DNA from: a virus
Lineage: Duplodnaviria; Heunggongvirae; Uroviricota; Caudoviricetes
Length of the DNA: 64,000 nucleotides
Virus record (IMG/VR): IMGVR_UViG_2639762884_000001
Direction: 5' to 3' (one strand)
In this document: positions 1,993 through 50,161 of the stretch, piece by piece
How the letters are laid out: every line of letters starts with the position of its first letter
How positions within the stretch are numbered: position 1 is the first letter of the stretch
Notes under the pieces: generated by a model
Database searches by the model: none
What the model saw: only the letters and a program-made list of their open reading frames with translations
What the model was told of the DNA's origin: nothing
Program-made: the position numbers and the translations under genes

Positions 1993-3093
1993 TCACACTG
2001 CGCGGAATGCGATTTCGCCAGGTATTACTTCACCTTGCCAATACATTTGGGCAGCAACGCGATCTGCGAGGTCACGATAAATAGCCGTAAATTCGCTATC
2101 TGGACGACTAATAACGGTTGGTGTTCCGTTATCCAGATCTTCACGAAGAGAGATATGAAGTGGCATTTGGCCTAACAACTGCGTGTTGTATTTCTCGGCC
2201 AGTTTCTGTGCGCCACCGGTGCCAAAAATTGGCTCGTGATGACCGCAGTTACTGCAAATATGCACACTCATGTTTTCGACGATACCTAGTACCGGCACTT
2301 CGACTTTTTCGAACATCACAATGCCTTTCTTCGCATCGATCAGCGCGATGTCTTGCGGCGTAGTTACCACAACCGCACCAGTTACAGGAATGTTCTGCGC
2401 CAGCGTCAATTGAATATCACCAGTGCCCGGCGGCATATCGAGAACGAGATAGTCCAGATCAGGCCACAGTGTTTCCTGCAACATCTGCATCAGCGCCTTG
2501 CTGGCCATCGGTCCACGCCACACCATTGCATTGTCGTCGGTGACCAGATAACCAATAGAGTTGGTTGCCAGGCCATGAGACATGATAGGTGCCATGTGAG
2601 TACCGTCCGGTGAGGTTGGACGTTGGTTTTCCGCGCCCAGCATGGTTGGAATTGATGGACCATAGATATCGGCATCCAAAATACCAACTTTCGCACCTTC
2701 AGCAGCCAAAGCCAGTGCCAAGTTTACTGCTGTGGACGATTTGCCTACACCGCCCTTGCCTGAGCTTACGGCGATAATATTCTTAACACCATTAATGCCT
2801 GGTTGGTTTTTGACGCGCTTAAGCGTGGCAATGTTGTACGACAGCTTCCAGTCAATAGCCTTTGCGCCAGTGATACGGAGCAGATCACCACTACATTGCT
2901 CTTTCAGGTCTTCAAAAGACTTATTCCACACGAAAGGCATGATTAGTTCGACATGCAGTGTGTCATCCATCAACGCAACATGGTGTAACGCTTTAAGCGT
3001 AGTCAGGTTGTGTTTCAGGGTTGGGTGCTGAAAATTAGCCAGCGTACCGGCTACCATTGCTCTCAGGGCATCCGGCGATTTGGACTCGCTCAT
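1993..3093 (-). CDS. apbC: Fe-S cluster carrier ATPase ApbC/Mrp
   Basis: 366-aa product nearly collinear with E. coli ApbC (Walker A SSGKGGVGKSS, CSNCGHH motif); divergent from metG as in enterobacterial chromosomes. Confidence 0.95.
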   Translation of the reverse strand: MSESKSPDALRAMVAGTLANFQHPTLKHNLTTLKALHHVALMDDTLHVELIMPFVWNKSFEDLKEQCSGDLLRITGAKAIDWKLSYNIATLKRVKNQPGINGVKNIIAVSSGKGGVGKSSTAVNLALALAAEGAKVGILDADIYGPSIPTMLGAENQRPTSPDGTHMAPIMSHGLATNSIGYLVTDDNAMVWRGPMASKALMQMLQETLWPDLDYLVLDMPPGTGDIQLTLAQNIPVTGAVVVTTPQDIALIDAKKGIVMFEKVEVPVLGIVENMSVHICSNCGHHEPIFGTGGAQKLAEKYNTQLLGQMPLHISLREDLDNGTPTVISRPDSEFTAIYRDLADRVAAQMYWQGEVIPGEIAFRAV

Positions 3094-3250: not shown

Positions 3251-5284
3251 ATGACCCAAGTCGCGAAGAAAATTCTGGTGACGTGCGCGCTGCCGTACGC
3301 TAACGGCTCAATCCACCTCGGCCATATGCTGGAGCACATCCAGGCTGATGTCTGGGTTCGTTACCAGCGAATGCGCGGCCACGAGGTTAATTTCATCTGT
3401 GCCGACGATGCCCACGGCACACCGATCATGCTGAAAGCACAGCAGCTTGGTATCACACCGGAACAGATGATTGGCGAAATGAGTCAGGAACACCAGACTG
3501 ATTTTGCAGGCTTTAACATCAGCTATGACAACTATCACTCGACGCACAGCGAAGAGAACCGTCAGTTGTCCGAGCTTATCTATACTCGCCTGAAAGAGAA
3601 CGGTTTTATTAAAAACCGCACCATCTCTCAGCTGTACGATCCGGAAAAAGGCATGTTCCTGCCGGACCGTTTTGTGAAAGGCACCTGCCCGAAATGTAAA
3701 GCACCGGATCAATACGGCGATAACTGTGAAGTCTGCGGCGCTACTTACAGCCCGACTGAACTGATCGAGCCGAAATCGGTAGTTTCTGGTGCTACGCCGG
3801 TAATGCGTGATTCCGAACACTTCTTCTTTGATCTGCCTTCTTTCAGCGAAATGTTGCAGGCATGGACCCGCAGCGGTGCGTTGCAGGAGCAGGTGGCAAA
3901 CAAAATGCAGGAGTGGTTTGAATCTGGCCTGCAACAGTGGGATATCTCCCGCGATGCGCCGTACTTCGGTTTTGAAATTCCGAACGCACCGGGCAAATAT
4001 TTCTACGTCTGGCTGGACGCGCCGATTGGCTACATGGGTTCCTTCAAGAATCTGTGCGACAAACGCGGCGACACTACCAGCTTCGACGAATACTGGAAGA
4101 AAGACTCCACCGCCGAGCTGTACCACTTCATCGGTAAAGATATCGTTTACTTCCACAGCCTGTTCTGGCCTGCCATGCTGGAAGGCAGCAATTTCCGCAA
4201 GCCGACCAACCTGTTTGTTCATGGCTATGTGACGGTGAACGGTGCGAAGATGTCCAAGTCTCGCGGCACCTTTATTAAAGCCAGCACCTGGCTGAATCAT
4301 TTTGACGCTGACAGCCTGCGTTACTACTACACTGCGAAACTCTCTTCGCGCATTGATGATATCGATCTCAACCTGGAGGATTTCGTTCAGCGCGTGAATG
4401 CCGATATCGTGAACAAAGTGGTTAACCTGGCCTCCCGTAATGCAGGCTTTATCAACAAGCGTTTTGACGGCGTGCTGGCAAGCGAACTGGCTGACCCGCA
4501 ACTGTACAAAACCTTTACTGATGCTGCTGAAGTGATTGGTGAAGCATGGGAAAGCCGCGAATTTGGTAAAGCGATTCGTGAAATCATGGCGCTGGCTGAT
4601 CTGGCTAACCGCTATGTCGATGAACAGGCTCCGTGGGTGGTGGCGAAGCAGGAAGGGCGCGATGCCGATCTGCAGGCGATTTGCTCTATGGGCATTAACC
4701 TGTTCCGCGTGCTGATGACGTACCTGAAACCGGTACTGCCGAAACTGACTGAACGTGCAGAAGCATTCCTGAATACAGAACTGACCTGGGATGGTATCCA
4801 GCAACCGCTGCTGGGCCATAAAGTGAATCCGTTCAAGGCACTGTATAACCGCATCGACATGAAGCAGGTTGAAGCACTGGTGGAAGCATCCAAAGAGGAA
4901 GTAAAAGCCGCTGCCGCGCCAGTAACTGGCCCACTGGCAGATGATCCGATTCAGGAAACCATCACCTTTGACGACTTCGCCAAAGTTGACCTGCGCGTGG
5001 CTCTGATTGAAAACGCGGAGTTTGTCGAAGGTTCTGACAAACTGCTTCGCCTGACGCTGGATCTCGGTGGCGAAAAACGTAATGTCTTCTCCGGCATTCG
5101 TTCCGCTTATCCAGATCCACAGGCACTGATTGGTCGTCACACCATTATGGTGGCCAACCTGGCTCCGCGTAAAATGCGCTTCGGTATCTCCGAAGGCATG
5201 GTGATGGCTGCTGGCCCCGGCGGGAAAGATATCTTCCTGTTAAGCCCGGATGCTGGTGCTAAACCAGGCCACCAGGTTAAGTAA
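3251..5284 (+). CDS. metG: methionine--tRNA ligase
   Basis: 677-aa product starting [26 protein letters not shown] (HIGH motif), KMSKS present, C-terminal tRNA-binding domain; near-identical to E. coli MetG as recalled. The track ORF start at 3122 is an upstream in-frame extension. Confidence 0.97.
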
Positions 5285-6689: not shown

Positions 6690-7079
6690 CGGTTGCAACT
6701 TATTGATAATGGCGGTCACAATTTGATTCTTTTCTATAAGAATCCGTTGATCGCCACTACTCCCCTTCCATACCTGCAATCATACCCTTAAATATCAATA
6801 GGTTATGGTTGTTTATACAAATAAGAAAACAACTAAATAACAGATCAACGAAACGTCAACGCTTTCACCCGATTTGGTCTAAAAAATTGATGTTTTCACA
6901 CATCACTTCTTATACCCGTAACTCTACGCAGCAGACAGCGCCACAGCGTCCAATTTTCACCACAGACGACTCAACACACCACCAACAAAAACACACGCTC
7001 AAAATCGCTCCCGTTGCGTTACATAACCATATAAACAACTTATTTTCAGGCATAACAAAACAACTAAATAACACACATG

Positions 7080-7200
7080 CCATTCCCCAAAACAACCAAC
7101 CTCTTTATGGCAGGCTACCGAAAAGACCCACCTCTTCTTCCCAGGCTACCGGACAACCAACCTAACTTTCACAGGCAATCCGAAAACATTCATACGCGCG
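7080..7200. repeat. C/A-rich direct repeats (CAGGCTACCG... units), first copy
   Basis: Units starting 7111, 7143, 7175 (caggctaccgaaaagacccacct / caggctaccggacaaccaacct / caggcaatccgaaaacattc) within a roughly 650-nt tract (about 6900-7560) almost devoid of G and T on the plus strand. Confidence 0.7.
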
Positions 7201-7757
7201 ATACCCACGATACGCCATTCCCCAAATAGCGAAGCACACCAGAATCACTGAAACCCCCAACGAAGCCTGTAACCGCAAGGTTTCTCTCAATCCCAAAAGA
7301 CACGAAACATAACAATCACGGGAAATGCCATTACCCAATACACGAATAACTACAAAAGCCTTTCACACACTCCAGACAAACAACTCAAACACAACAACGA
7401 AAGGAATCGCCCACCTGCCATTACTCCATACACAGAGAAGAACAATCACCAAAACGACGAGAACACCCCATAGAAGAACCACCGCAAAACTAACGAAACC
7501 ACATACACCGACAGAGAAAACAACACACCCAATTCACCAACAGAAATAGTCGCCGTATAGAACGTTCTGGAAGGAGTGAGCATTAACGCCTATAGAGAGG
7601 TTGAAACAGATAAAACACGAAGAAAACACAACATGTATAGCGAAGAAGCCAGGTATGTATAAGTGGGGGGGGAAGGAGGGGTGTCGCCTCCTTTTTCGTA
7701 TTTATTCAACTCCTGATTTTATCCCCCGTAACACCCCTACGGTCAGCCTCCGGTCCA

Positions 7758-7897
7758 TAAGGGAAAAGGCTGCATCCCGCTACAGAAACGGCTGGATTGC
7801 CTTCGGGGAACGGCTGGAGGTTTTCAGAGAAACGGTCGAGTTGCCTGTGTGAATTTCGGGAAAAGGTTCGATGCCGGTTCAGGAACGGCGGCGTACC
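7758..7897. repeat. iteron-like direct repeats (RGRAAMGGCTG), cluster 1
   Basis: Six copies: gggaaaaggctg 7761, agaaacggctg 7785, gggaacggctg 7806, agaaacggtcg 7827, gggaaaaggttcg 7858, aggaacggcgg 7881; spacing about 21-31 bp. Confidence 0.7.
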
Positions 7898-8231
7898 GGT
7901 ATAGCGTGAGGGAGAGTTGCGGCTGCCCACCTGTAATGTGCGGGAAGAAGAGAGGCGCTCACGTGCAGGCGGACTAACTTACCGCTGGATTCCCTCTGAA
8001 TGCCCAGCTACAGCGTAATTGTGCCAGACAGCCAACGGGTCACAATCGATTTCAGTAGGTTTTCGGGGAGATGATTATTCTGCCCACCAGCCACCTTAGG
8101 CCACTAAATCAGAATAATGTAAAAAGTGTACTCGGTACTGAACCTGAAAACTCACTGCCAAAACCACATTCACCGGAATAAAATCCTTTTTCGCCTGTGC
8201 GTTATTGCGATAATAACACCATCAAGAAAAC

Positions 8232-8582
8232 ATGTTGTTTAAGGATTGCTTTATGTTTGCAAATATCGACATCAACCAAATCAAGAAATTAACTCAAAAA
8301 GAGTTTGATCAGTTTTATGAGTTAGAAGGTTGGTCTTCCACTCTGATCAATTCGCGGTGGGTGCTTGAGCTGATGACTCGTGATGACGCACCTGCTTTGA
8401 TGATTTGCGACATGGGTGAAGATGCTGACTTTATGGATATGAGCGAATTTTGTGTGGACACATACAACCGCAGCCAGAAGTACTACTTCACATGCGATAG
8501 CGAAAATGACGTGATTTCTAAGGTCTATCTTCACCTTGTCCAGCATTGGGACGTTCAGGAGTTTCTTGAGGTATTCGCGTAA
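8232..8582 (+). CDS. hypothetical protein (116 aa; alternative start 8253 with AAGGA RBS)
   Basis: ORF; acidic Cys-containing product; hairpin 8593-8611 downstream. Confidence 0.5.
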   Translation: MLFKDCFMFANIDINQIKKLTQKEFDQFYELEGWSSTLINSRWVLELMTRDDAPALMICDMGEDADFMDMSEFCVDTYNRSQKYYFTCDSENDVISKVYLHLVQHWDVQEFLEVFA

Positions 8583-8735
8583 TCCCAACCAAAGCCAGCA
8601 TTGCTGGCTTAATTTCTCTATAGCCGCAGGGAGGAACCTGCATATCGATCATGCACCTGATCATTATGCTTTGTAGCCGTTTTCTTACTGGTATTATTTA
8701 CGCCATTGAGAAAACAAGTTGTTTACGGAGTTGTG

Positions 8736-9047
8736 ATGAAAAAATCATTGGTTCTTGGTCTGGACAAAGACCAGAAGAGAAAAGAGAAGCCTGCACTGGT
8801 TGCTCAATTAACTTTGCTAGACATCGTTGCCAATGGAACTTCTATTCGTCTGTTCCGTGAAACAGCGGTGTCTTTCGATAAAAACACCTTTACTCGTTAT
8901 GTAATGAATGTTCGTCGCCAGCGTGGAAAAGGATGGGTGGCATTTCAAAGAATGTGGCCGGAACATCAGCTCGAACTGGCCTTGATGGAAGTTAACCGCG
9001 TGGCCCAGCAAGAAATTCAGAGAGCATCAGTGATGGCAATAGCCTGA
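8736..9047 (+). CDS. hypothetical protein (103 aa)
   Basis: ATG at 8736 preceded by GGAG; class A palindrome 8711-8724 directly upstream. The track ORF starts at an upstream TTG. Confidence 0.5.
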   Translation: MKKSLVLGLDKDQKRKEKPALVAQLTLLDIVANGTSIRLFRETAVSFDKNTFTRYVMNVRRQRGKGWVAFQRMWPEHQLELALMEVNRVAQQEIQRASVMAIA

Positions 9048-9082
9048 TAATGTGCAAGTGGTAATTAGTCGACAGTACGACA

Positions 9083-9110
9083 GCCCCGCCATCCTTACGG
9101 GGCTTTTTTG
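9083..9110 (+). terminator. Rho-independent terminator
   Basis: GCCCCG...CGGGGC stem followed by TTTTTT. Confidence 0.8.
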
Positions 9111-9173
9111 TATTGTAAGTACATACTTATGATCATAGAATATAAAAATAACCAATACACTACGGAGAGTGAA

Positions 9174-9569
9174 ATGACCGTTAAACGCGAAAAACTGACA
9201 GTTGATGTTTACTATGCCTCTGAAACCGCCGAAGGTAAGAATGTGGCAAAAATCACCGTTGTTACGTACAACACCGAAACTGGTGCCGAAGTCCAGGCCA
9301 GTACGATCGTGCGTAAAGGTGATGCCTCCGGCGGCGAGTACGCGACTCAATACCAGTCCATTCTCGATGCAACTGACCCGCTGCTGCTGAAAATCGAGAA
9401 CTACTTCCGCCAGGTTGATGAAGAGGTGTTTGAAACCATGATGAATATGGTTAACACCGTATTCGCCTCCAGCCTGAACACCAGCACCACCTGGATTGGC
9501 CAGTACGGTCTGCGCATTACCTCTGGCATTCCTGCCGACACCTTAATCCCTGAAAGCGTATTCGCTTAA
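9174..9569 (+). CDS. hypothetical protein (131 aa)
   Basis: ATG at 9174 with GGAGAG RBS; terminator downstream. Confidence 0.5.
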   Translation: MTVKREKLTVDVYYASETAEGKNVAKITVVTYNTETGAEVQASTIVRKGDASGGEYATQYQSILDATDPLLLKIENYFRQVDEEVFETMMNMVNTVFASSLNTSTTWIGQYGLRITSGIPADTLIPESVFA

Positions 9570-9579
9570 TCCTCTTTAA

Positions 9580-9606
9580 ATGGCGCGCAAACCGCGCCAT
9601 TTTATT
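9580..9606 (+). terminator. Rho-independent terminator
   Basis: ATGGCGCG-CAAAC-CGCGCCAT hairpin followed by TTTATT. Confidence 0.8.
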
Positions 9607-9686
9607 ATGCCCGATAACAATTTGTTTTCTGCCTTATCTGATTTGTGAAAATGATTTCACTGAAGCAACTTAATAAGGAAACCATC

Positions 9687-10061
9687 ATGGGACTTGATAT
9701 CTATATCGAGACACAGCCTAAAAACGATCTGAATAACGAGGCATCCAGAAAGCAGGTTGCTTACTTCCGTAAGTTCAATGCGCTCGTGGGGTGGATGGAG
9801 CGCAACGTAGGTGAAGTCGAAAATTGTGAGCTTTTAGAATTAACGATGAATGACATTTGTCTTCTGAAAGCTCATTTGATGCACATAAACGAAAGCAATT
9901 GCGAAGAGTACTTGCCTACTCGGGAAGGTTTTTTCTTCGGCAGTCAGGAGTACGACGAAGGTTACTGGCATGACGTGGATAAGCTGAAAAAACTTGTGGA
10001 AGACCTGATCAGGAACCACGACTTTAACAATAACAGACTGACCTTCTGCGCCTGGTGGTAA
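9687..10061 (+). CDS. hypothetical protein (124 aa)
   Basis: ATG at 9687 with AAGGA RBS; class A palindrome at 9616-9628. Confidence 0.5.
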   Translation: MGLDIYIETQPKNDLNNEASRKQVAYFRKFNALVGWMERNVGEVENCELLELTMNDICLLKAHLMHINESNCEEYLPTREGFFFGSQEYDEGYWHDVDKLKKLVEDLIRNHDFNNNRLTFCAWW

Positions 10062-10063
10062 AT

Positions 10064-10207
10064 ATGGGCGATTTCAAGAAACGCCTGAAGGAAAGAGCCG
10101 AGATGGTCAGAAAGCAAAACGCCTCTTCTGTCATCAGATACGCAAGGCAGTTTAGTCGCAACAACAAATCAGTTGAGGAAAAGATCCTTAGCGTAATCGG
10201 TCGATAA
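10064..10207 (+). CDS. small basic hypothetical protein (47 aa)
   Basis: ATG one codon after the preceding stop, GGTGGTAA upstream; below the track size cutoff; hairpin follows. Confidence 0.3.
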   Translation: MGDFKKRLKERAEMVRKQNASSVIRYARQFSRNNKSVEEKILSVIGR

Positions 10208-10254
10208 TTATTAAGGCCATCAGCATTGGTGGCCTTAAATGACCATCCTGTTTC

Positions 10255-10345
10255 CCGCAGGCTAAAAACACCAACCTCTTACCTCCAGGCAACCGACAAA
10301 CCCACCTGTTCCCGTCCGGCTACCGCAACTTTCCACTTTGACGCC
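10255..10345. repeat. C/A-rich direct repeats, second copy
   Basis: caggctaaaaacaccaacct / caggcaaccgacaaacccacct / cggctaccgcaactttcc, paralogous to 7111-7195. Confidence 0.65.
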
Positions 10346-10411
10346 TTATTCGTACAACGATAATTAACACCAACAAGAAAACAATTTGTTATTTACGATA
10401 AGGAATTAATC

Positions 10412-10894
10412 ATGAATTTTATCGCTACTGTAAACGCACCCGCACATGGCAATATCGCTGTAACGTTCTCTGACATTGAAAAACGAGTACTTGGTGCATG
10501 GCGCGACAATGAGACGGTAGAACTGTCAGCACAAGAAAAATGCATTATTGCACGCGACATCATTGGCAATCGTCGTTACTCGCGGGTATTTGAGAAAGCG
10601 TATGTGGTAAATTCTGGATTCGGAACGTTCGTCTTTCCGGTGCGCTCCGGGCGATTCTGCCAGTCCAAGCTGATTGAGTTCGCTACGCAGATTTCTGTCT
10701 GGATTAAAACTCAATCGTCGTTCAAATTTTCCGACGATGAAGCAGTATCGCAGGGGATGCGGATCGCCAACAATGCAATTAAATGCAAAAACATTACGTA
10801 TACCGCTGGCGTTGATACATGGAAACTGTTTTGCGCTAACTTTATGTTGAATGTATACGCAAGCAACCGCATCCACATCCTTGATGGCGTGTAA
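10412..10894 (+). CDS. hypothetical protein (160 aa)
   Basis: ORF with AAGGAATTAATC ATG; class A site 10377-10390 upstream. Confidence 0.5.
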   Translation: MNFIATVNAPAHGNIAVTFSDIEKRVLGAWRDNETVELSAQEKCIIARDIIGNRRYSRVFEKAYVVNSGFGTFVFPVRSGRFCQSKLIEFATQISVWIKTQSSFKFSDDEAVSQGMRIANNAIKCKNITYTAGVDTWKLFCANFMLNVYASNRIHILDGV

Positions 10895-10940
10895 CTGAGA
10901 AGAGGGCCAGAAACGGCCCTTTCTCTATAGCCACCAGCTG

Positions 10941-11060
10941 CCGCAGGGAAATTTTCAGAGACGGCGAGGAACGTATTCATGAGCCGACGGGAAACGGCCA
11001 GGATTTTTTCGGGAAACGGCTGCATTCGCCTTTGTGTAGAAAAAACATCGGGAAGCTGGT
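10941..11060. repeat. iteron-like direct repeats (GGGAAACGGC), cluster 2
   Basis: agagacggcg 10957, gggaaacggcc 10989, gggaaacggctg 11011, gggaagctgg 11049; the ttttcagag and ggctgcat contexts match cluster 1. Confidence 0.65.
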
Positions 11061-11481
11061 GGAATCCAACCAGCGGTTGTCGGACAGGTGAGCGGGGAAA
11101 ATCATGATGACTTTCGTCGCCTGAGACATCCAGATTTCTTTCGTAGCGTAATCACATATGTGATTAAGTGGTGTGATTATGTGAAAAATCACGCGCACAT
11201 AATACGCGAGCGGATACGGAACAAAACAAAATGCCGATCCGCGCCGACAAATAAACGCGGATCATAAAGCAAGACTAAAAGCCAATGATTAACCATACTC
11301 TATAGCGCAATATAACGCGTTTTAAGCGCGTTAATGTGTTAAGTAATGGGTATGTACTGGTAAGGATATAAAATCGCGTCTATGGCGTTATTTTGGCGCT
11401 TATTTTTATGTTGTTGGAGTGAGTTAAAGACAATAAAAAACGTGCTAATGATGGCGCGTTATGGTGGGAGTATTGGAAACG

Positions 11482-11510
11482 AAAAAAGCGCCCATAGTGG
11501 GCGCTCGATT
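11482..11510. terminator. bidirectional terminator hairpin (GCGCCCA-TAG-TGGGCGC)
   Basis: Stem 11488-11494 / 11498-11504 flanked by an A-run and T-rich tract; ends the leftward operon. An identical hairpin recurs at 11983-11999. Confidence 0.75.
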
Positions 11511-11741
11511 TTATTTGTGTAAACTGATTTTAAATCCCATTTCTACAAACGCTTTTAACATTAAAAATATATCAGCGTCGTTCACGTCTGCTTTTTTTCG
11601 CTCCTGGTCGCTCAATAAGTCAATTTTGCGCGTCGTTTCATCTATAAGCTCGACTGCGCGCCCAGCGTAACCAGCGATCCCAGCGATGCGATTAACATAA
11701 TATTCGTTATGGACGTTAACGCCAGCGATAAGAACAAACAT
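11511..11741 (-). CDS. hypothetical protein (76 aa)
   Basis: ORF at the distal end of the leftward operon. Confidence 0.4.
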   Translation of the reverse strand: MFVLIAGVNVHNEYYVNRIAGIAGYAGRAVELIDETTRKIDLLSDQERKKADVNDADIFLMLKAFVEMGFKISLHK

Positions 11742-12013: not shown

Positions 12014-12664
12014 TTACGCTTTGAAAGCATCAGCTAAATAATTGTAGAAATCATTTTTAATGAAGCGATATTGCTGAGTACCAGCTTTCGCGCTCCCAGC
12101 TCCTTTGACTTTTTCAACAAGTCCAAGACGTTCGCAAAGATTGATCAACTGGTTGGCTTGAGTATAGCCAGCGTCCAATTTAATTTCACACGCTTTTTTA
12201 GCTTCATTCATTAAATCGAAAACAGCGCCATTGGTGAACGTGTCGATCTCGTCGTTAATCATATCGATTAAAGCGAATACACGAGATCCTGACATATCAG
12301 CGATGGAATAAACGCATTTACCAGATTTAATTGATTTAACCAGATAAACCAGTTTTTCCAGAGAATAACTATTAGTCATTGCATCACGGAAAAATACTTC
12401 TGGCGCTTGTTTGCTTGCTTTAATCGCATAGTAAAAAACAGAGCATAATTTTTCGTCTTCTACAGCGTTTACAACGTTGTTGATGAAGTAAGCAAGTTTA
12501 GTGGTCGCAGCTTGCATATTTGCTTTGTCTGCTTTAGTGTGCGTACCATTTTTATAATGTTCGTTATATGTTTGAGTTGCCAGATCTGCTTTTTCGCGCA
12601 GCTCGTCGGATACAATAGATGCAGCTTCAATGATGGACTTTTTAGAAATGATAATGTTAGCCAT
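12014..12664 (-). CDS. hypothetical protein (216 aa)
   Basis: Long ORF; AT-rich promoter-like region 12665-12950 upstream. Confidence 0.55.
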   Translation of the reverse strand: MANIIISKKSIIEAASIVSDELREKADLATQTYNEHYKNGTHTKADKANMQAATTKLAYFINNVVNAVEDEKLCSVFYYAIKASKQAPEVFFRDAMTNSYSLEKLVYLVKSIKSGKCVYSIADMSGSRVFALIDMINDEIDTFTNGAVFDLMNEAKKACEIKLDAGYTQANQLINLCERLGLVEKVKGAGSAKAGTQQYRFIKNDFYNYLADAFKA

Positions 12665-13260: not shown

Positions 13261-13863
13261 TCAAAAAGGCAAAATTCGTTCAACCCAATCGAACAAAACA
13301 ACTATTTTTCTACCGTTCTCGACACGTAGTGTAACCTGACAAGCATCTGCGCCTGCTGACACCCCCTCAATTTCACGGCCATCCGCCATGTACACCCTTA
13401 TAGATTTGTTTGCTTTATAGGCTTGGTTGCAAATTGCAAAAAAATCGCGGCGTGATGGCCGATTATCGACATAATCAGGGTGAACTGTTAATCGACCTTT
13501 GAAATCGTGAGCGATACTGTCAACCACACCTGATTCAATTGTACTAATGCGTTCAAGTGGGAGCCTTATACGATTTTCTTTGTCAAAAGGGGCTGGGCAA
13601 AGGTCAACTTTGTTGCGAGATGGCATGAGGCCATAAACGTACATGCAAAACGCCTGACCATCTTCGAGAGTGACCCTTACAGGAATTTGTTCTCTGCGCC
13701 AGAACATCAGTAGTTTTTCAACGTTAGTGTAATCTCGCGGCAAGAGTTCAGCTTGGATACCGTAGGTAATATCTTTGGTTGTCATGTCATCACAGAGTTG
13801 TTGGCAGAATGTCGATGTCACCAGAATTGCTGGTGAACACCCTGAACGCTTTTGTGTCTCCAT
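13261..13863 (-). CDS. hypothetical protein (200 aa)
   Basis: ORF; no motif recognised. Confidence 0.5.
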   Translation of the reverse strand: METQKRSGCSPAILVTSTFCQQLCDDMTTKDITYGIQAELLPRDYTNVEKLLMFWRREQIPVRVTLEDGQAFCMYVYGLMPSRNKVDLCPAPFDKENRIRLPLERISTIESGVVDSIAHDFKGRLTVHPDYVDNRPSRRDFFAICNQAYKANKSIRVYMADGREIEGVSAGADACQVTLRVENGRKIVVLFDWVERILPF

Positions 13864-14280: not shown

Positions 14281-14559
14281 TTATTTTAATCTGCTTAATA
14301 GCGTTTCGAGATCTTCCTTTGTCATATTAGAGTTCTCATAGATACGCATGATTTTCTCACGAGTCTTAGCGGAAGCCCCGACAGAAGATATAACCTTGTC
14401 AAAGTCGGCCATTGTCAATTGTTCCAGAATGGTATTAATGACTTCAGCCTTAGACATTTTGATATTTTTTTCTTTTAGTTTCACTTGAAACTTTCCAAGT
14501 TTGTCATTGGCCTTATCAGACAATGCTACCTGACAGTAAGTTGTTTTCTTTTCACTCAT
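14281..14559 (-). CDS. hypothetical protein (92 aa), Lys-rich
   Basis: ORF immediately downstream of the helicase gene on the minus strand. Confidence 0.45.
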   Translation of the reverse strand: MSEKKTTYCQVALSDKANDKLGKFQVKLKEKNIKMSKAEVINTILEQLTMADFDKVISSVGASAKTREKIMRIYENSNMTKEDLETLLSRLK

Positions 14560-40100: not shown

Positions 40101-41849
40101 GCTGCAAACGCTAAACAACTGGAAGTGTTGCAGTCAACGGTAGAGGAAAGCTCCGCTGCCGTTGAAGAAATGAAAAAGACGGTTGCAGAGGTCGATCGTG
40201 CAAGTGCAGAACTGACTACGAACATTGAGGCGTTAGCCAAAACAAATATTGACCTGGCTCTTCGTCAAGATGAAGACCAGCACAAGCAGATGGTCAATAA
40301 CGCGAAGATCGCAACAACACAGAAAACCTTTGCTGATGATATGTCTGCAATGGCCACGAAGGTTGAGGAAATTCGCGTAGAAATTGGCGAAGACATTAAG
40401 GCCAGTATTCTGGAAGAGTCCACCGCTCGTGCCGATGGCGATGAAGCGTTGGCAAAGCGTGTCACTCAGCTGCAATCTAAGTTTGAAGGAGATATCAGCG
40501 CGGCGATTAGTACAGAGCAGGAGGCTCGTACATCTGCCGATGAAGCTCTGACGACACAGATCACTCAGCTTGAGTCGAAAGTAAGCAACGATATCGTCGC
40601 AGCTATTAAGGAAGAGCAAGAAGCCCGAGCAACGGAAGATTCGGCTCTGGCAAGCCAGATCACCCAACTTCAGGCAAAGGTTGATGATGATATTTCTGCT
40701 GCAATACGTAGTGAGCAGGAGGCCCGAGCAAGCGGGGACTCTGCGTTAGCCAAACAAATAAACCAGCTTCAGTCAAAGGTTGACGGTGATATATCCGCGG
40801 CCATCACTCAGGAGCAGGAGGCCAGAGCAAGTGCTGACCAGGCGCTCTCACGAGAAATTAACAGCCTGCGAGCACAAACCGGAACTGATATTGCCGCAGC
40901 GGTTGCTGTAGAGACAAAAGCAAGGACTGATGCCGATAGTGCATTGTCTACCCAGATTACGTCTCTTACAGCAAAAGCTAATGATCTCGAGGCGTCTCTT
41001 GCCAGAGAAACAACGGCTCGTGCAGATGGTGATACCGCTTTAACAAAAGAGGTTTCAAGTTTAAAAGCACAGACAGCGAAAGATATTAGTGCGGCCGTTG
41101 CAGTTGAAACGCAGGCTCGAACTGATGCTGACTCGGCGTTGTCGTCTCAGATCACCAAGCTGACCTCTCAATACAAAGAGGATATTAAAGCGGCTGTAGC
41201 AACCGAAACGAAAACGCGTACAGAGCAAGATGCTGCATTGGCGACTCAAATCACAAACTTAGAGTCTCAAACGGCAGCCAACATTTCCGCGGCGGTCACA
41301 ACTGAAACGACAGCGAGAACGCAGGCAGATAATGCTCTGAGTGGGCGAATCGATACTCTGAAAGCAGAGGTGGATGGAAATACCGCGACAATTCAACAGC
41401 AGGCAACAGCTATTGCTGATACCAACAAAAAAGTGTCAACCGCGTGGACGTTGAAAATGGAGACTTCAACGAGCGGAGGGCAGAAGTATGTTGCCGGTAT
41501 TGCGCTTGGTATTGACACCACTGGGCTATCTCAGTTTTTGGTTCAGGCGGACAGGTTTGGTTTGGTCAACTCTGTTAACGGGAAGATCACAACGCCATTT
41601 GTTATCGAAAACAGTATCGCCTATATGAATGGAGCGTATATCAAGGATGGCACAATCACCAATGCAAAAGTAGGCGATCTGCAATCTACCAATTTTGTTA
41701 GCGGTAGATCTGGATGGCGGTTCGGCAAAAATGGAACGCTTGAGATCAACGGTAATAGCGGCGGCAATGGGCGATTGGTTATAAATGGTCAGCGGATTGA
41801 CGTTTATGACGATAACAACGTCCTACGAGTAAGAATTGGCCGTCTGTGA
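37122..41849 (+). CDS. tail tip / host-specificity protein, lambda gpJ-like, with a long inserted coiled-coil repeat array
   Basis: Several blocks match lambda J by recall (GQYCDEEVDDGFGG, FGCTSRGQAHRVGLWLL, FLTGKITSSELG, GGQKYVAGIALGI...SQFLVQADRFG); residues about 1090-1420 are roughly 28-aa repeats. Confidence 0.9.
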   Translation: MEQFKKKKLPLFIAGAGGKKSSKSSSRTPVEADDTVNSRAMAAILDLLGEGVIGGLVNGARSIFIDDLPIVNEDGSSNFSGITWDFRDGSQDQTPMSGFDFVETPKSVNIQLKKTHYVTVSIDNDEADRVRVIMKFPSLRSIDKKTGDTNGTTVEYKFQIANGDSTFVDVVAEGEKSVGIKLTAKKTGVYYRSYELKLPKPGRAYKVRVVRITDDNSSQYLYNDTWVDSIGEIVDTPMNYPNSVLVGLKVNSEQFGSTMPSRSYLVRGLKIRVPSNYNESSNTYAGVWDGTFKLLSSSNPAWILFDLLTNARYGLGQYVSESMIDLGQLYQIGRYCDEEVDDGFGGKEKRFAINTQITSRQDAYRLIQDIAGAFRGMVFWAGGMVNIMQDSPSDPVMMFTNSNVKDGLFTYKGSARKDRPSVALVTYNNKEDGYKQNIEYVEDQDAMRRYGERKTEVVAFGCTSRGQAHRVGLWLLYTARMESDVITFTAGLDASFLMPGETVLIQNKYRAGKRNSGRIVAFTKNSVTLDAPVSLAKGGCFIRILNQEGKIVERDVLETGENITKVTFSKSLSSAETPVLNGVWTITEPDLEPMRVRIVNIAQGETPGSFDITAVENNPSKYEAIDNGATLIPQNTTVLDPTYSKPSNLQITEGTYLSSPGNLSVKLTATWEGKSPEYWISWRRSDENNVSNWQSARVTEEQYEIVNVAENGRYDFQLYAVSFNGKKTEIISTVYQVLGTMTPPDAPTSLTAVGDYRNVILNWVNPDSVDLDHINVYASQTNNLDTAKLIAESASTTFTHAGLGDSETWYYWVRASNKRGMLSPPNSNLGTEATTRDVLSFLTGKITSSELGQALLEDINSKASQEAVDELNEHINQSVESLEGSVNDVKEDIAELDKQFSDNLADFEIKFNERSDALENAQTELKGEVSATIDKVNEAFEKIDATDAAIVEIENTVSEHDKALANTVEAIKAARDEAAALIAKESEARVEGDAANAKQLEVLQSTVEESSAAVEEMKKTVAEVDRASAELTTNIEALAKTNIDLALRQDEDQHKQMVNNAKIATTQKTFADDMSAMATKVEEIRVEIGEDIKASILEESTARADGDEALAKRVTQLQSKFEGDISAAISTEQEARTSADEALTTQITQLESKVSNDIVAAIKEEQEARATEDSALASQITQLQAKVDDDISAAIRSEQEARASGDSALAKQINQLQSKVDGDISAAITQEQEARASADQALSREINSLRAQTGTDIAAAVAVETKARTDADSALSTQITSLTAKANDLEASLARETTARADGDTALTKEVSSLKAQTAKDISAAVAVETQARTDADSALSSQITKLTSQYKEDIKAAVATETKTRTEQDAALATQITNLESQTAANISAAVTTETTARTQADNALSGRIDTLKAEVDGNTATIQQQATAIADTNKKVSTAWTLKMETSTSGGQKYVAGIALGIDTTGLSQFLVQADRFGLVNSVNGKITTPFVIENSIAYMNGAYIKDGTITNAKVGDLQSTNFVSGRSGWRFGKNGTLEINGNSGGNGRLVINGQRIDVYDDNNVLRVRIGRL
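40380..41380 (+). repeat. tandem roughly 84-bp coding repeats inside the J-like gene
   Basis: About 11 units encoding DISAAI..EQEARASADEAL..QITQLQSKV.. variants. Confidence 0.8.
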
Positions 41850-49133: not shown

Positions 49134-49802
49134 ATGACCAAGATCTTTGTGGTTGGCGGCACAAAGGGCGGGCCTGGCAAATCCACCGTTGCCCAGCAAA
49201 TTGCCGTTTGCCTGAAAGTCAAAAAGAAGAAGAAGGTTTATATCACCGATATAGATATTCAGCGCACGACAACGAGCTGGTGTGAAGACCGTCGACAGAA
49301 CGAAGATCTTGAGCTGATTCCTTTTGCATACGTTCAAGATGACATCATTAAGCACCTAAAATCGCTTCAGGGTAGAGCTGAGTATGTAGTGGTAGATGCT
49401 GGTGGCTTTGACTCCGAAATTCAGCGACAAGCGATGCTGATGGCCGACGTTATCATTATCCCGCTGCGTCCTAAGCGTCGTGATTTGAAATCTTTACGTG
49501 ACATCGATCCTATTATCGACAATGTTCGCAATGTAAACGACAAAGTGAAAGTCCGCGCGGTCATGAACCAATGCCCGGCTTTGCCATCACAAGTGTCTCG
49601 CATTCTAGCGGCTAAAGAGATTGTCGAGACGTTTGGCATCGAGTCTGCGCCAGTCAATCTATATAACCGCAACGTCTATGATGATGCGGAAGAGTCTGGT
49701 CGTTCTATCTTTGAAATGACCGGTAGCGAGCGCGACAAAAAGGCGGAAGCCGAGTTTGAAGAATTTGTAGATTATCTGTTGAGTCTGGAGGAAGAAGAAT
49801 AA
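49134..49802 (+). CDS. ParA/MinD-family partition ATPase (small type)
   Basis: Deviant Walker A GGTKGGPGKST, VVVDAGG Walker B-like region; 222 aa. Confidence 0.8.
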   Translation: MTKIFVVGGTKGGPGKSTVAQQIAVCLKVKKKKKVYITDIDIQRTTTSWCEDRRQNEDLELIPFAYVQDDIIKHLKSLQGRAEYVVVDAGGFDSEIQRQAMLMADVIIIPLRPKRRDLKSLRDIDPIIDNVRNVNDKVKVRAVMNQCPALPSQVSRILAAKEIVETFGIESAPVNLYNRNVYDDAEESGRSIFEMTGSERDKKAEAEFEEFVDYLLSLEEEE

Positions 49803-50161
49803 TGTCCATGAAAATGGGTGACCTAGCAAAGCGCAAAGAGCCTGATGCACCGGCTAAGAACACAACTCCTTTGCGCCAACCAATCAGACCACAGGGACGC
49901 CCGACTCGTGGCAAAGAGAAAATTAAAAGCCGCACGATGTCACTGGAAGACGAATACTTCGAACTGCTGGAGATGATGAAGTTCATCCCTCGCTTCGAGA
50001 AGTTCACCCGTTCTGACGTGATTCGCGCAGCCATTTTCCATCTGGCAGAGAAGTCACCGCAGGAAATCGAGGACATCGTGAAACTTAACGAGGCGATCAC
50101 TGCTGCCGATGTCACGATGCGTACCGATGAAATTAAACGCGAGTTAATGAAGAAAGGTTGA
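49802..50161 (+). CDS. small partition-associated DNA-binding protein (ParG/ParB-like, putative)
   Basis: 119 aa, basic disordered N-terminus and helical C-terminus; translationally coupled to the ParA-like gene (TAATG). Confidence 0.5.
   Translation: MSMKMGDLAKRKEPDAPAKNTTPLRQPIRPQGRPTRGKEKIKSRTMSLEDEYFELLEMMKFIPRFEKFTRSDVIRAAIFHLAEKSPQEIEDIVKLNEAITAADVTMRTDEIKRELMKKG

What the first reader, a model, noticed from the sequence alone, without database searches (positions are those of the whole stretch)
7758..11060. Two paralogous iteron-like repeat clusters (GGRAAMGGCTG), each preceded by C/A-rich CAGGCTACCG repeats
Cluster 1 (7758-7897) has six units spaced about 21-31 bp; cluster 2 (10941-11060) has four to five related units, including matching contexts (ttttcagagaaacgg and ggctgcat). 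Upstream of each lie related C/A-rich direct repeats (7111-7195; 10261-10340). Direct-repeat arrays with roughly two-helical-turn periodicity are typical of plasmid or phage origins and partition centromeres; two copies 3 kb apart in an early region is unusual.
Basis: seen in the sequence. Interest (0 to 1): 0.65.

Follow-up and report, generated by a model that had tools for sequence, protein, structure and literature searches.

The report
Conserved phased repeat arrays, phage-plasmid
Two short arrays of a repeated 9-base motif, spaced exactly two DNA turns apart, are conserved in hundreds of SSU5/pHCM2-type phage-plasmids of enterobacteria and look like docking sites for an unidentified DNA-binding protein, but they are not the plasmid's known replication origin.

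Summary
The window is an E. coli SSU5/pHCM2/pECOH89-type phage-plasmid. Cluster 1 has six same-strand units (core GNGAAAMGG) at 7761-7888, spaced 22-22-22-31-22 bp. Cluster 2 has three strong units (10956, 10989, 11011; spacing 33, 22) plus weak ones. No other such array exists on the plasmid. Core, orientation and spacing are kept across E. coli, Salmonella, Klebsiella, Enterobacter, Citrobacter, Kluyvera and Cronobacter, and cluster 2 also in Yersinia pestis pMT1, while the spacers diverge. The C/A-rich 30-bp repeats (7089-7185; 10236-10329) are also real and conserved.

The plasmid Rep lies about 73 kb away and uses unrelated iterons. There is no DnaA box or easily melted stretch beside either cluster. 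No par operon is adjacent. RNA readings are weak: no covariation, folding no better than shuffles, no Rfam hit, and near-background transcription in lysogens.

Best reading: these are DNA-level phased binding arrays for a backbone-encoded protein, sited just downstream of hairpin terminators. Most likely they are phage-type (lytic) origin or origin-auxiliary sites. A centromere role for the element's ParA and small partner is nearly as likely. The binder and the function remain untested.

The parts
7761..7888 (+). Cluster 1: six units with core GNGAAAMGG at 7761, 7783, 7805, 7827, 7858, 7880 (spacing 22-22-22-31-22)
   Evidence: The same spacing pattern is found in 58 distinct relatives. In each unit G.GAA.GG is invariant across 16 representatives that average 75% identity.
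10946..11059 (+). Cluster 2: strong units at 10956, 10989, 11011 (spacing 33, 22); weak units at 10946, 10966, 11050
   Evidence: The 33/34 + 22 pattern is kept in all lineages, including Y. pestis pMT1 (L010) and the most divergent locus, L092.
7089..7185 (+). C/A-rich D1 array 1: three 30-31-bp units, ACCnACCTcTT-n6-CAGGCTACCGA
   Evidence: (family D1). Present in Klebsiella, Salmonella, Enterobacter and Citrobacter relatives.
10236..10329 (+). C/A-rich D1 array 2: three units ending 13 bp upstream of the -35 of the promoter TTGACG-17-GATAAT (10340-10368) of gene 10412-10894
   Evidence: Also seen in L089.
8611..8645 (+). Solitary related unit (tctctatagccGCAGGGAGGAACCTGCAT) just after the terminator of gene 8232-8582. 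It shares the junction CTCTATAGCC..GCAGGGA with the start of cluster 2.
   Evidence: (family D13).
7669..7697 (+). G-rich hairpin with T-run (terminator-like), 64 bp upstream of cluster 1. It is preceded by an invariant TATAAG (7658-7663) and followed by an invariant CCCCCGTAAC (7723-7732).
10904..10926 (+). Intrinsic terminator of gene 10412-10894 (GGGCC-agaaac-GGCCC-TTTCTCT), 20 bp upstream of cluster 2. The stem is kept through a compensatory change (GGGGC/GCCCC) in other genera.
10931..10938 (-). Chi octamer (GCTGGTGG on the - strand), left arm of a 9-12-bp inverted repeat that brackets cluster 2
11055..11062 (+). Chi octamer, right arm of the inverted repeat that brackets cluster 2. Kept in about 12 of 15 representative lineages although the flanks differ.
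7900..8150 (+). Conserved non-coding stretch downstream of cluster 1. It holds weaker CGGGA units, a conserved GATTTCAGTAGGTTTTCGGGGAG and a - strand Chi at 8084-8091. No gene is annotated here in any relative.
6880..7560 (+). C/A-rich conserved non-coding region that holds D1 array 1 and four GCCATTAC boxes. It is probably an early untranslated transcript.
12014..12664 (-). Candidate binder: 216-aa protein with an N-terminal helical hairpin and a C-terminal winged-helix DNA-binding domain. The winged-helix part is the most conserved part of the protein. The gene is silent in lysogens.
8736..9047 (+). Candidate binder: 103-aa basic protein (pI 10.5) with four long beta strands and a C-terminal helix. 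In L089/L093 it and the 160-aa gene are the only two genes between the clusters.
14281..14559 (-). Candidate binder: 92-aa basic protein whose N-terminus reads like a ribbon-helix-helix (judged by eye only). It is one of the most expressed genes in the plasmid state.
   Evidence: Sequence. No Pfam or PDB sequence support. CYRAN_117 expression 114 against a background of 9.8.
49134..50161 (+). ParA-type ATPase (222 aa) plus a 119-aa basic partner (the 'ParG-like' protein). The operon is expressed in the plasmid state, and no repeat of 10 bp or more lies next to it.

Best explanation
Both clusters are arrays of co-oriented DNA binding sites for one sequence-specific protein. That protein is encoded by the conserved SSU5-type backbone, not by the plasmid Rep. 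The 9-bp core is GNGAAAMGG. Spacing is 22 bp (two helical turns) with occasional 31-34-bp (three-turn) steps, so bound copies would lie roughly on one face of the helix and could build a higher-order nucleoprotein complex. Each array sits just downstream of a hairpin terminator, which should limit read-through from the upstream early genes. I commit to this role as the most likely one: the arrays are the origin, or an origin plus an auxiliary site, of the element's own phage-type (lytic-cycle) replication. This would resemble P4 ori/crr or SPP1 oriL/oriR, where one initiator recognises two separated repeat clusters. The lysogen-silent winged-helix protein at 12014-12664 is my first candidate for the binder. 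Shown: the arrays exist, they are unique on the plasmid, and core, spacing and orientation are conserved while spacers are not. Also shown: they are independent of the Rep type, and there is no RNA structure and no abundant RNA. Inferred: protein binding, the identity of the binder, and the replication role.
For: Motif clustering is far above chance, and no further array was found on the plasmid. The 22-22-22-31-22 architecture is kept in 58 distinct relatives from seven genera, and the 33/34+22 architecture of cluster 2 in all lineages, while spacers diverge. The 22-nt period excludes coding repeats. The arrays persist although the Rep type varies (IncFIB, rep_cluster_488, rep_cluster_763). 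Each array follows a hairpin terminator; the one before cluster 2 is kept through a compensatory change, and minus-strand terminators lie beyond cluster 2. The conserved non-coding DNA around each array spans 450-600 bp, which is the size of a composite origin rather than a simple operator. The family carries its own replisome and T4-like recombination proteins, so a phage-type origin should exist, and I found no paper that maps one (literature searches). A winged-helix DNA-binding protein is encoded 950 bp from cluster 2 and is off in lysogens. Chi sites flank cluster 2 in the divergent orientation seen around oriC (- on the left, + on the right).
Against: There is no easily melted stretch within about 300 bp of either array and no DnaA box with one mismatch or fewer. 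The conserved core is only 9-11 of the 22 bp, shorter than classical iterons. The replicative helicase and primase genes are about 40 kb away. Cumulative GC skew turns at the Rep region, not here. Cluster 1 is missing from pMT1 and was not found in the 6 kb held upstream in L092. No protein has been tied to the motif, and a dimeric winged-helix protein would more naturally bind the nearby palindrome at 11149-11166. Nothing here measures replication.
Confidence: 0.3

Rival explanations
1. The arrays are centromere-like partition sites. They would be bound by the small basic partner (49802-50161) of the ParA-type ATPase (49134-49802), or by the 92-aa RHH-like protein. ParA would then segregate plasmid copies through these complexes, with two centromeres as in pB171 parC1/parC2 or the dispersed sopC sites of N15.
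For: The ParA operon is expressed in the plasmid state (CYRAN_28 at 50, CYRAN_29 at 89, background 9.8). No repeat of 10 bp or more lies beside it, so its centromere is unassigned. The arrays follow terminators, lack a melting element, tolerate changes in unit number (3-7 units) and do not depend on the Rep type. All of these are centromere-like traits. The arrays are retained in a 52-kb derivative that lost the virion genes but kept ParA and its partner.
Against: The arrays lie 38 kb from the par operon, whereas type Ib centromeres normally abut the operon (established knowledge: TP228, pB171, pSM19035). Known RHH centromere motifs are 4-7 bp and contiguous, not 9 bp every 22 bp. Short TAAGGC/TAGGC motifs do occur next to the ParA operon and could be its real site. 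pMT1 keeps cluster 2 although no type Ib ParA is annotated on the 96.6 kb of it that I examined, and it carries a ParA/ParB pair of another type. The RHH assignments are by eye only.
Confidence: 0.22
2. The arrays are transcription-control sites on DNA. A bound protein would act as a roadblock or insulator that reinforces the terminators between early transcription units, or as an upstream activator or silencer of the neighbouring early promoters.
For: All three occurrences of the unit (7761, 8625, 10946) lie within about 20-65 bp downstream of a hairpin terminator and upstream of the next control region. The intergenic control regions of this gene block are paralogous to one another (family D3). 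D1 array 2 sits at about -50 to -135 of a promoter.
Against: Cluster 1 lies 300-420 bp from the next promoter. Cluster 2 has no downstream + strand gene at all. Six phased sites are more than a roadblock needs. No known regulator recognises this motif.
Confidence: 0.12
3. The units act in RNA. They would be single-stranded purine-rich sites that titrate or recruit an RNA-binding protein, such as the FljA-like/Sm-like protein at 13261-13863 or host CsrA or Hfq, in the manner of CsrB-type sponges.
For: All units are on the strand that is transcribed in the flanking genes. The predicted RNA is unstructured (z +1.1, -0.4, -0.7), as sponges often are. A FljA-family protein is encoded 2.2 kb away (Pfam Flag1_repress 1.7e-82, with a weak Hfq match). 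In the E. coli lineage, cluster 2 shares a 12-mer and an 8-mer with the E. coli fliC leader; from memory, not checked here, this leader is the target of FljA.
Against: GGA, the invariant CsrA determinant, is absent from several units, whose invariant pattern is G-N-G-A-A-A-N-G-G. No promoter-plus-terminator pair frames either array, and both lie downstream of terminators. The annotated feature over cluster 1 is at 1.5 times background in lysogens, and the C/A region is at the detection floor. No covariation was found and there is no Rfam hit. Strict conservation of a two-turn spacing is not expected for sponge RNAs. The fliC-like 12-mer is confined to the E. coli lineage.
Confidence: 0.13
4. 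The arrays are iterons of the plasmid Rep, acting as origin or copy-control/incompatibility loci like P1 incA. This is the strict form of the first reader's idea.
For: The arrays are direct repeats in a 22-bp register.
Against: In pECOH89 the Rep gene is about 73 kb away and is flanked by about 20 copies of GTATGCTGTCAGCGGT, which is unrelated to GNGAAAMGG. Relatives with other Rep types keep the same arrays.
Confidence: 0.02
5. The arrays are relics of tandem duplications and have no function.
For: Tandem 22-bp duplication could create such arrays. Unit number varies among close relatives.
Against: Core positions are invariant while spacers diverge to about 58-75% identity across genera. The same spacing pattern is kept in seven genera, and two independent arrays keep the same core.
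Confidence: 0.05

Closest known systems
Iteron arrays of theta-replicating plasmids (RK2 oriV, R6K gamma ori, F oriS/incC, P1 oriR/incA)
   Same: Co-oriented direct repeats in a register of about 22 bp. There is more than one cluster per replicon, and unit number varies.
   Different: No rep gene is adjacent, and the element's Rep uses other iterons. No DnaA box or AT-rich unwinding element lies alongside. Only 9-11 of the 22 bp are conserved, against 17-19 in classical iterons.
Two-site phage origins: P4 ori/crr and SPP1 oriL/oriR
   Same: A phage genome carries two separated clusters of the same short repeat, which are (in those phages) bound by one phage initiator. The separation is on a kilobase scale.
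   Different: No initiator is identified here and no replication data exist. Cluster 1 is dispensable in some relatives. This comparison rests on my knowledge of those systems, not on a test.
Plasmid partition centromeres (TP228 parH, pB171 parC1/parC2, pSK41 parC with 20-bp repeats, dispersed sopC of prophage N15)
   Same: Arrays of repeats with no unwinding element. Multiple centromeres per replicon are known, including in a phage-plasmid.
   Different: The arrays lie 38 kb from the only type Ib ParA operon. The motif length and spacing are unlike known RHH centromeres.
CsrB/RsmZ-type protein-sponge RNAs
   Same: Many purine-rich units about 20 nt apart on one strand. CsrB itself, as I recall its sequence, contains CAGGGAAAGGC.
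   Different: GGA is not conserved. There is no promoter/terminator frame, no hairpin presentation, and near-background RNA in lysogens.

Membership tests
Iteron-type plasmid origin | Three or more direct repeats in a register of about 22 bp | tested here: met
   Spacing is 22-22-22-31-22 and 33-22.
Iteron-type plasmid origin | Repeats match the binding sites of the replicon's Rep and lie next to rep | tested here: not met
   The Rep iterons are GTATGCTGTCAGCGGT and lie 73 kb away in pECOH89.
Iteron-type plasmid origin | Adjacent AT-rich unwinding element and DnaA box(es) | tested here: not met
   There is no low-stability 50-mer in 7600-8200 or 10900-11400. There is no TTATCCACA with one mismatch or fewer.
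Iteron-type plasmid origin | Supports autonomous or initiator-dependent replication | not testable with these tools
   This needs cloning or marker-frequency analysis.
Two-site phage origin (P4 ori/crr type) | Two separated clusters of the same repeat on one phage genome | tested here: met
   The distance between clusters is 1.5-3.5 kb among relatives.
Two-site phage origin (P4 ori/crr type) | A phage initiator binds the repeats, and both sites are needed in cis | not testable with these tools
   Only a candidate winged-helix protein was found.
Type Ib partition centromere | Repeat array adjacent to or overlapping the parA promoter | tested here: not met
   The ParA operon is at 49134-50161, and the arrays are 38 kb away.
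Type Ib partition centromere | Bound by the small RHH partner, stabilises a plasmid and exerts incompatibility | not testable with these tools
   The RHH fold of the 119-aa and 92-aa proteins is inferred by eye. There is no Pfam or PDB sequence support.
CsrB-type sponge RNA | GGA in every unit, mostly in hairpin loops | tested here: not met
   The units CAGAAACGG and GAGAAACGG lack GGA, and the invariant pattern is G-N-G-A-A-A-N-G-G. No stable hairpins were found.
CsrB-type sponge RNA | Discrete, abundant transcript with its own promoter and terminator | tested here: not met
   The Cyrano lysogen RNA level is 14 against a background of 9.8. Induced cells were not tested.
Structured non-coding RNA (any Rfam family) | Covariation-supported structure or a match to a covariance model | tested here: not met
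   There was no relevant Rfam match at E<=1: the single weak hit (bxd_5, 20.4 bits against a gathering score of 50) lies at 12101-12164, outside the arrays. The RNAalifold covariation term is -1.0 kcal/mol over 442 columns.

The most novel reading that the evidence does not exclude
The arrays, together with the partner D1 arrays, form a multi-site operator or decoy for the element's FljA-like, Sm-fold nucleic-acid-binding protein. On this reading a phage-plasmid carries a translational repressor of host flagellin together with its own titration array. In the E. coli lineage that array has even acquired a 12-nt copy of the fliC leader. This would tie plasmid-prophage state to host motility control.
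Probability: 0.06. Interest if true: 0.75.

Novelty: new variant of a known kind. Interest (0 to 1): 0.5.

Why it matters
SSU5/pHCM2/pMT1/pECOH89-type phage-plasmids are common in clinical E. coli, Klebsiella, Salmonella Typhi and Yersinia pestis and carry resistance genes such as blaCTX-M-15. More than 700 PLSDB records match this region. I found no published mapping of their lytic origin or of the centromere of their ParA system. These two arrays are the only iteron-like elements on the backbone apart from the Rep iterons, so they are concrete and cheaply testable candidates for one of those missing cis sites. If they are maintenance sites, cloned copies could serve as incompatibility or curing tools against this plasmid family. 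If they are lytic origins, they would show how a plasmid-prophage switches between two replication modes.

Tried and rejected
1. Plasmid Rep iterons: rejected, because the sequence is different and the location is distant.
2. Known RNA family: no relevant Rfam match at E<=1; the only hit, a weak bxd_5 match, lies outside the arrays at 12101-12164.
3. Structured RNA: RNAalifold on 16 representatives gave -21 kcal/mol with a covariation term of -1.0. Single-sequence folds were no better than shuffles.
4. CsrA sponge: GGA is not conserved.
5. Coding repeats: a 22-nt period is not a multiple of 3, and no relative has an annotated gene here.
6. Duplicated module or pseudogene: there is no protein or extended DNA similarity between the two modules outside the repeat units.
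7. Classical origin signatures: no DnaA box and no unwinding element. GC skew turns at Rep, not here.
8. Arrays elsewhere: an exact-pattern scan of viral contigs returned mostly single matches to the pattern; known SSU5-type contigs were among the hits (for example L162, with three matches), but nothing was learned about other elements.
9. Binder identification: Pfam, PHROGs, NCBIfam and PDB sequence searches of the neighbouring small proteins gave nothing. The two structure predictions gave one winged-helix protein and one uninformative beta-plus-helix fold.
10. A 2026 bioRxiv preprint on phage-plasmid copy number appeared in searches but could not be opened.
11. Literature searches for iterons, origins or ncRNAs in SSU5, pHCM2 or pMT1 found nothing relevant.


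Full report
**What the window is.** The 4.6 kb around the finding is 97-99% identical to Escherichia phage Cyrano (pLF82), PhiR41_1 and plasmids such as pECOH89. It matches 711-783 PLSDB records from Escherichia, Klebsiella, Enterobacter, Salmonella (pHCM2), Yersinia (pMT1), Citrobacter and Cronobacter. The window is therefore part of an SSU5/pHCM2-type phage-plasmid of about 110 kb. The local gene order is as follows:
- an apbC-like gene (1993-3093, - strand) and a full-length metG (3251-5284), then small genes;
- a gap of about 1.5 kb with no annotated gene in pECOH89 and other PGAP-annotated relatives (about 6700-8230);
- small genes of unknown function (five annotated in pECOH89, plus a 50-aa ORF);
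- the gene 10412-10894;
- a second gap of about 600 bp with no annotated gene (10895-11510);
- a block of minus-strand genes ending in a UvsW-like helicase.

- Cluster 1 consists of six same-strand 9-mers at 7761, 7783, 7805, 7827, 7858 and 7880, spaced 22-22-22-31-22 bp.
- Cluster 2 has strong units at 10956, 10989 and 11011 (spacing 33, 22) and degenerate ones at 10946, 10966 and 11050.
- A relaxed scan of the window and of pECOH89 finds no third array.
- The C/A-rich repeats form a single family of six copies with a period of about 30 bp, three at 7089-7185 and three at 10236-10329.
- Outside the repeat units the two modules share no extended similarity, and the 160-aa gene has no decayed copy in the first module.

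**Conservation.** I collected about 90 related loci.
- In 58 distinct sequences the cluster 1 pattern 22-22-22-31-22 recurs in E. coli, Salmonella, Enterobacter, Citrobacter, Kluyvera and Cronobacter. Klebsiella-type elements have 22-22-22-38.
- In an alignment of 16 representatives (mean 75%, minimum 58% identity) the positions G.GAA.GG of every unit are invariant, while the spacers vary freely.
- Cluster 2 keeps 33/34+22 in every lineage, including Y. pestis pMT1 and the most divergent locus, L092, whose spacers are different.
- Cluster 1 is absent from pMT1 and was not found in the 6 kb held upstream in L092. Its distance from cluster 2 ranges from 1.5 to 3.5 kb. In L089/L093 only two genes lie between the arrays: the 103-aa basic protein and the 160-aa protein.
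- Unit number varies from 3 to 7 among close relatives.
- This is the signature of selection on a short recognition core, its orientation and its helical register.

**Not Rep iterons.** In pECOH89 the RepB-family initiator lies about 73 kb from this region. It is flanked by about 20 copies of GTATGCTGTCAGCGGT at a 21-bp spacing. Relatives typed IncFIB, rep_cluster_488 or rep_cluster_763 all carry the same GNGAAAMGG arrays. The arrays therefore belong to the phage-type backbone, not to the plasmid replicon.

**DNA or RNA?**
- No relevant Rfam family matches at E<=1; the only hit is a weak bxd_5 match outside the arrays.
- The RNAalifold consensus is weak (-21 kcal/mol over 442 columns, covariation term -1.0).
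- The arrays fold no better than dinucleotide shuffles (z +1.1, -0.4, -0.7).
- GGA is not conserved, which argues against a CsrA sponge.
- Each array starts 20-65 bp after a hairpin with a T-run. The hairpin before cluster 2 is kept through a compensatory change. Beyond cluster 2 lie minus-strand terminators and a bidirectional terminator.
- In the published LF82 transcriptome (PMC9928086, supplementary table) the background is 9.8. The feature over the start of the C/A-rich region is at the detection floor (5.0), and the feature over cluster 1 reads 14.
- I therefore favour action at the DNA level. An RNA role after induction is not excluded.

**What is missing for a classical origin or centromere.** No DnaA box with one mismatch or fewer and no low-stability 50-mer lies within about 300 bp of either array. 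Cumulative GC skew turns at the Rep region. The only type Ib ParA (49134-49802) and its 119-aa basic partner are 38 kb away. The operon is expressed in the plasmid state (50 and 89) and has no repeat of 10 bp or more beside it, although short TAAGGC-like motifs are present.

**Candidate binders.**
- The 103-aa basic protein is a four-stranded sheet plus a helix and has no informative structural neighbour.
- The 92-aa protein next to the helicase reads like a ribbon-helix-helix by eye, and it is among the most expressed plasmid-state genes (114). No profile search supports that fold.
- None of these proteins is linked to the motif by evidence.

**Commitment.** These are phased DNA binding arrays for a backbone-encoded protein. 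I estimate about 0.6 for this general statement.
- Phage-type origin or origin-auxiliary role: 0.3. The family encodes its own replisome and T4-like recombination proteins, so such an origin should exist, and I found no paper that maps one. Each array sits within 450-600 bp of conserved non-coding DNA in the early region. Chi octamers flank cluster 2 in the divergent orientation seen at oriC.
- Centromere for the ParA system: 0.22.
- RNA-level sites: 0.13.
- Transcriptional roadblock or regulator arrays: 0.12.
- Non-functional relics: 0.05.
- Rep iterons: 0.02.

**Comparison with known systems.** The arrays work like iterons or centromere repeats. They fail the membership tests for a Rep-iteron origin (adjacent rep gene, matching iterons, DnaA box and unwinding element) and for a type Ib centromere (adjacency to par). 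I file them as a new variant of a known kind. I found no description of them in the literature held here.

Noticed in passing
window 6880-7560: A conserved non-coding stretch of about 680 nt with extreme C/A bias (A 0.40, C 0.33, G 0.12, T 0.15). It holds D1 array 1 and four GCCATTAC boxes (7079, 7214, 7327, 7417). An operator-like palindrome (7032-7047) precedes it and a hairpin with T-run (7669-7697) ends it. It is at the detection floor in Cyrano lysogens. It looks like an unstructured early non-coding transcript, perhaps a Rho-loading (rut-like) leader or a protein sponge.
   Followed up: partly
window 5370, 5421, 7032, 8229, 8713, 9616, 10380, 19521, 49087, 52323: The palindrome GAAAACAAnTTGTTTTC recurs at about ten promoters. 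It lies just downstream of the -10 at early genes (including the DnaB-like helicase operon; before terS its position relative to a -10 was not examined) but upstream of the -10 at the ParA operon, which is on in lysogens. It is likely the operator of a global repressor.
   Followed up: partly
window, 14 sites; 8084(-), 10931(-), 11055(+) near the arrays: The Chi octamer GCTGGTGG occurs 14 times against 1.5 expected. An inverted pair forms a 9-12-bp inverted repeat that brackets cluster 2 and is kept in most lineages.
   Followed up: partly
window 13261-13863 (-): This gene encodes an FljA-family protein (Pfam Flag1_repress E 1.7e-82, with a weak Hfq-like C-terminus). It is conserved across the family, including pMT1, and its mRNA rises in macrophages in the LF82 data. 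It may repress host flagellin.
   Followed up: partly
window 10960-10967 and 10979-10990; L095 (E. coli fliC leader): In the E. coli lineage, cluster 2 shares GACGGCGA and the 12-mer TGAGCCGACGGG, in the same order, with the E. coli fliC 5' leader. Matches of 12 nt or more occur in only 5 of about 2,130 control windows, and some of those 5 overlap cluster 2 itself. Other genera lack this match.
   Followed up: partly
window 11065-11520: A conserved non-coding block downstream of cluster 2. It holds a perfect 18-bp palindrome TAATCACATATGTGATTA (11149-11166), minus-strand terminators (11264-11235, 11208-11192), a bidirectional terminator (11487-11505) and conserved GTAATGGGTATGTAC. Small RNAs or an operator region may lie here.
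   Followed up: partly
window 1993-3093 (-) and 3251-5284 (+): The element carries an ApbC/Mrp-like Fe-S carrier ATPase and a complete methionyl-tRNA synthetase as cargo. apbC is expressed in lysogens at about 9 times background.
   Followed up: no
window 8185-8239, 8669-8723, 10336-10390: Three paralogous promoter-plus-operator cassettes (55 nt, 62-71% identical) precede the small early genes. This indicates that the early block is built from modules.
   Followed up: no
L012 (JAEWTL010000044.1): A contig labelled 'MAG: Bacillota bacterium' encodes a 160-aa protein 99% identical to the one in this E. coli phage-plasmid. This is probably a binning or contamination error.
   Followed up: no
Cyrano CYRAN_43 (record 40268-40822; by my mapping it would fall near window 60-61 kb, not verified): In the LF82 table this feature is expressed about 700 times above the prophage background. 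That level suggests an abundant RNA rather than an ordinary protein-coding gene.
   Followed up: no
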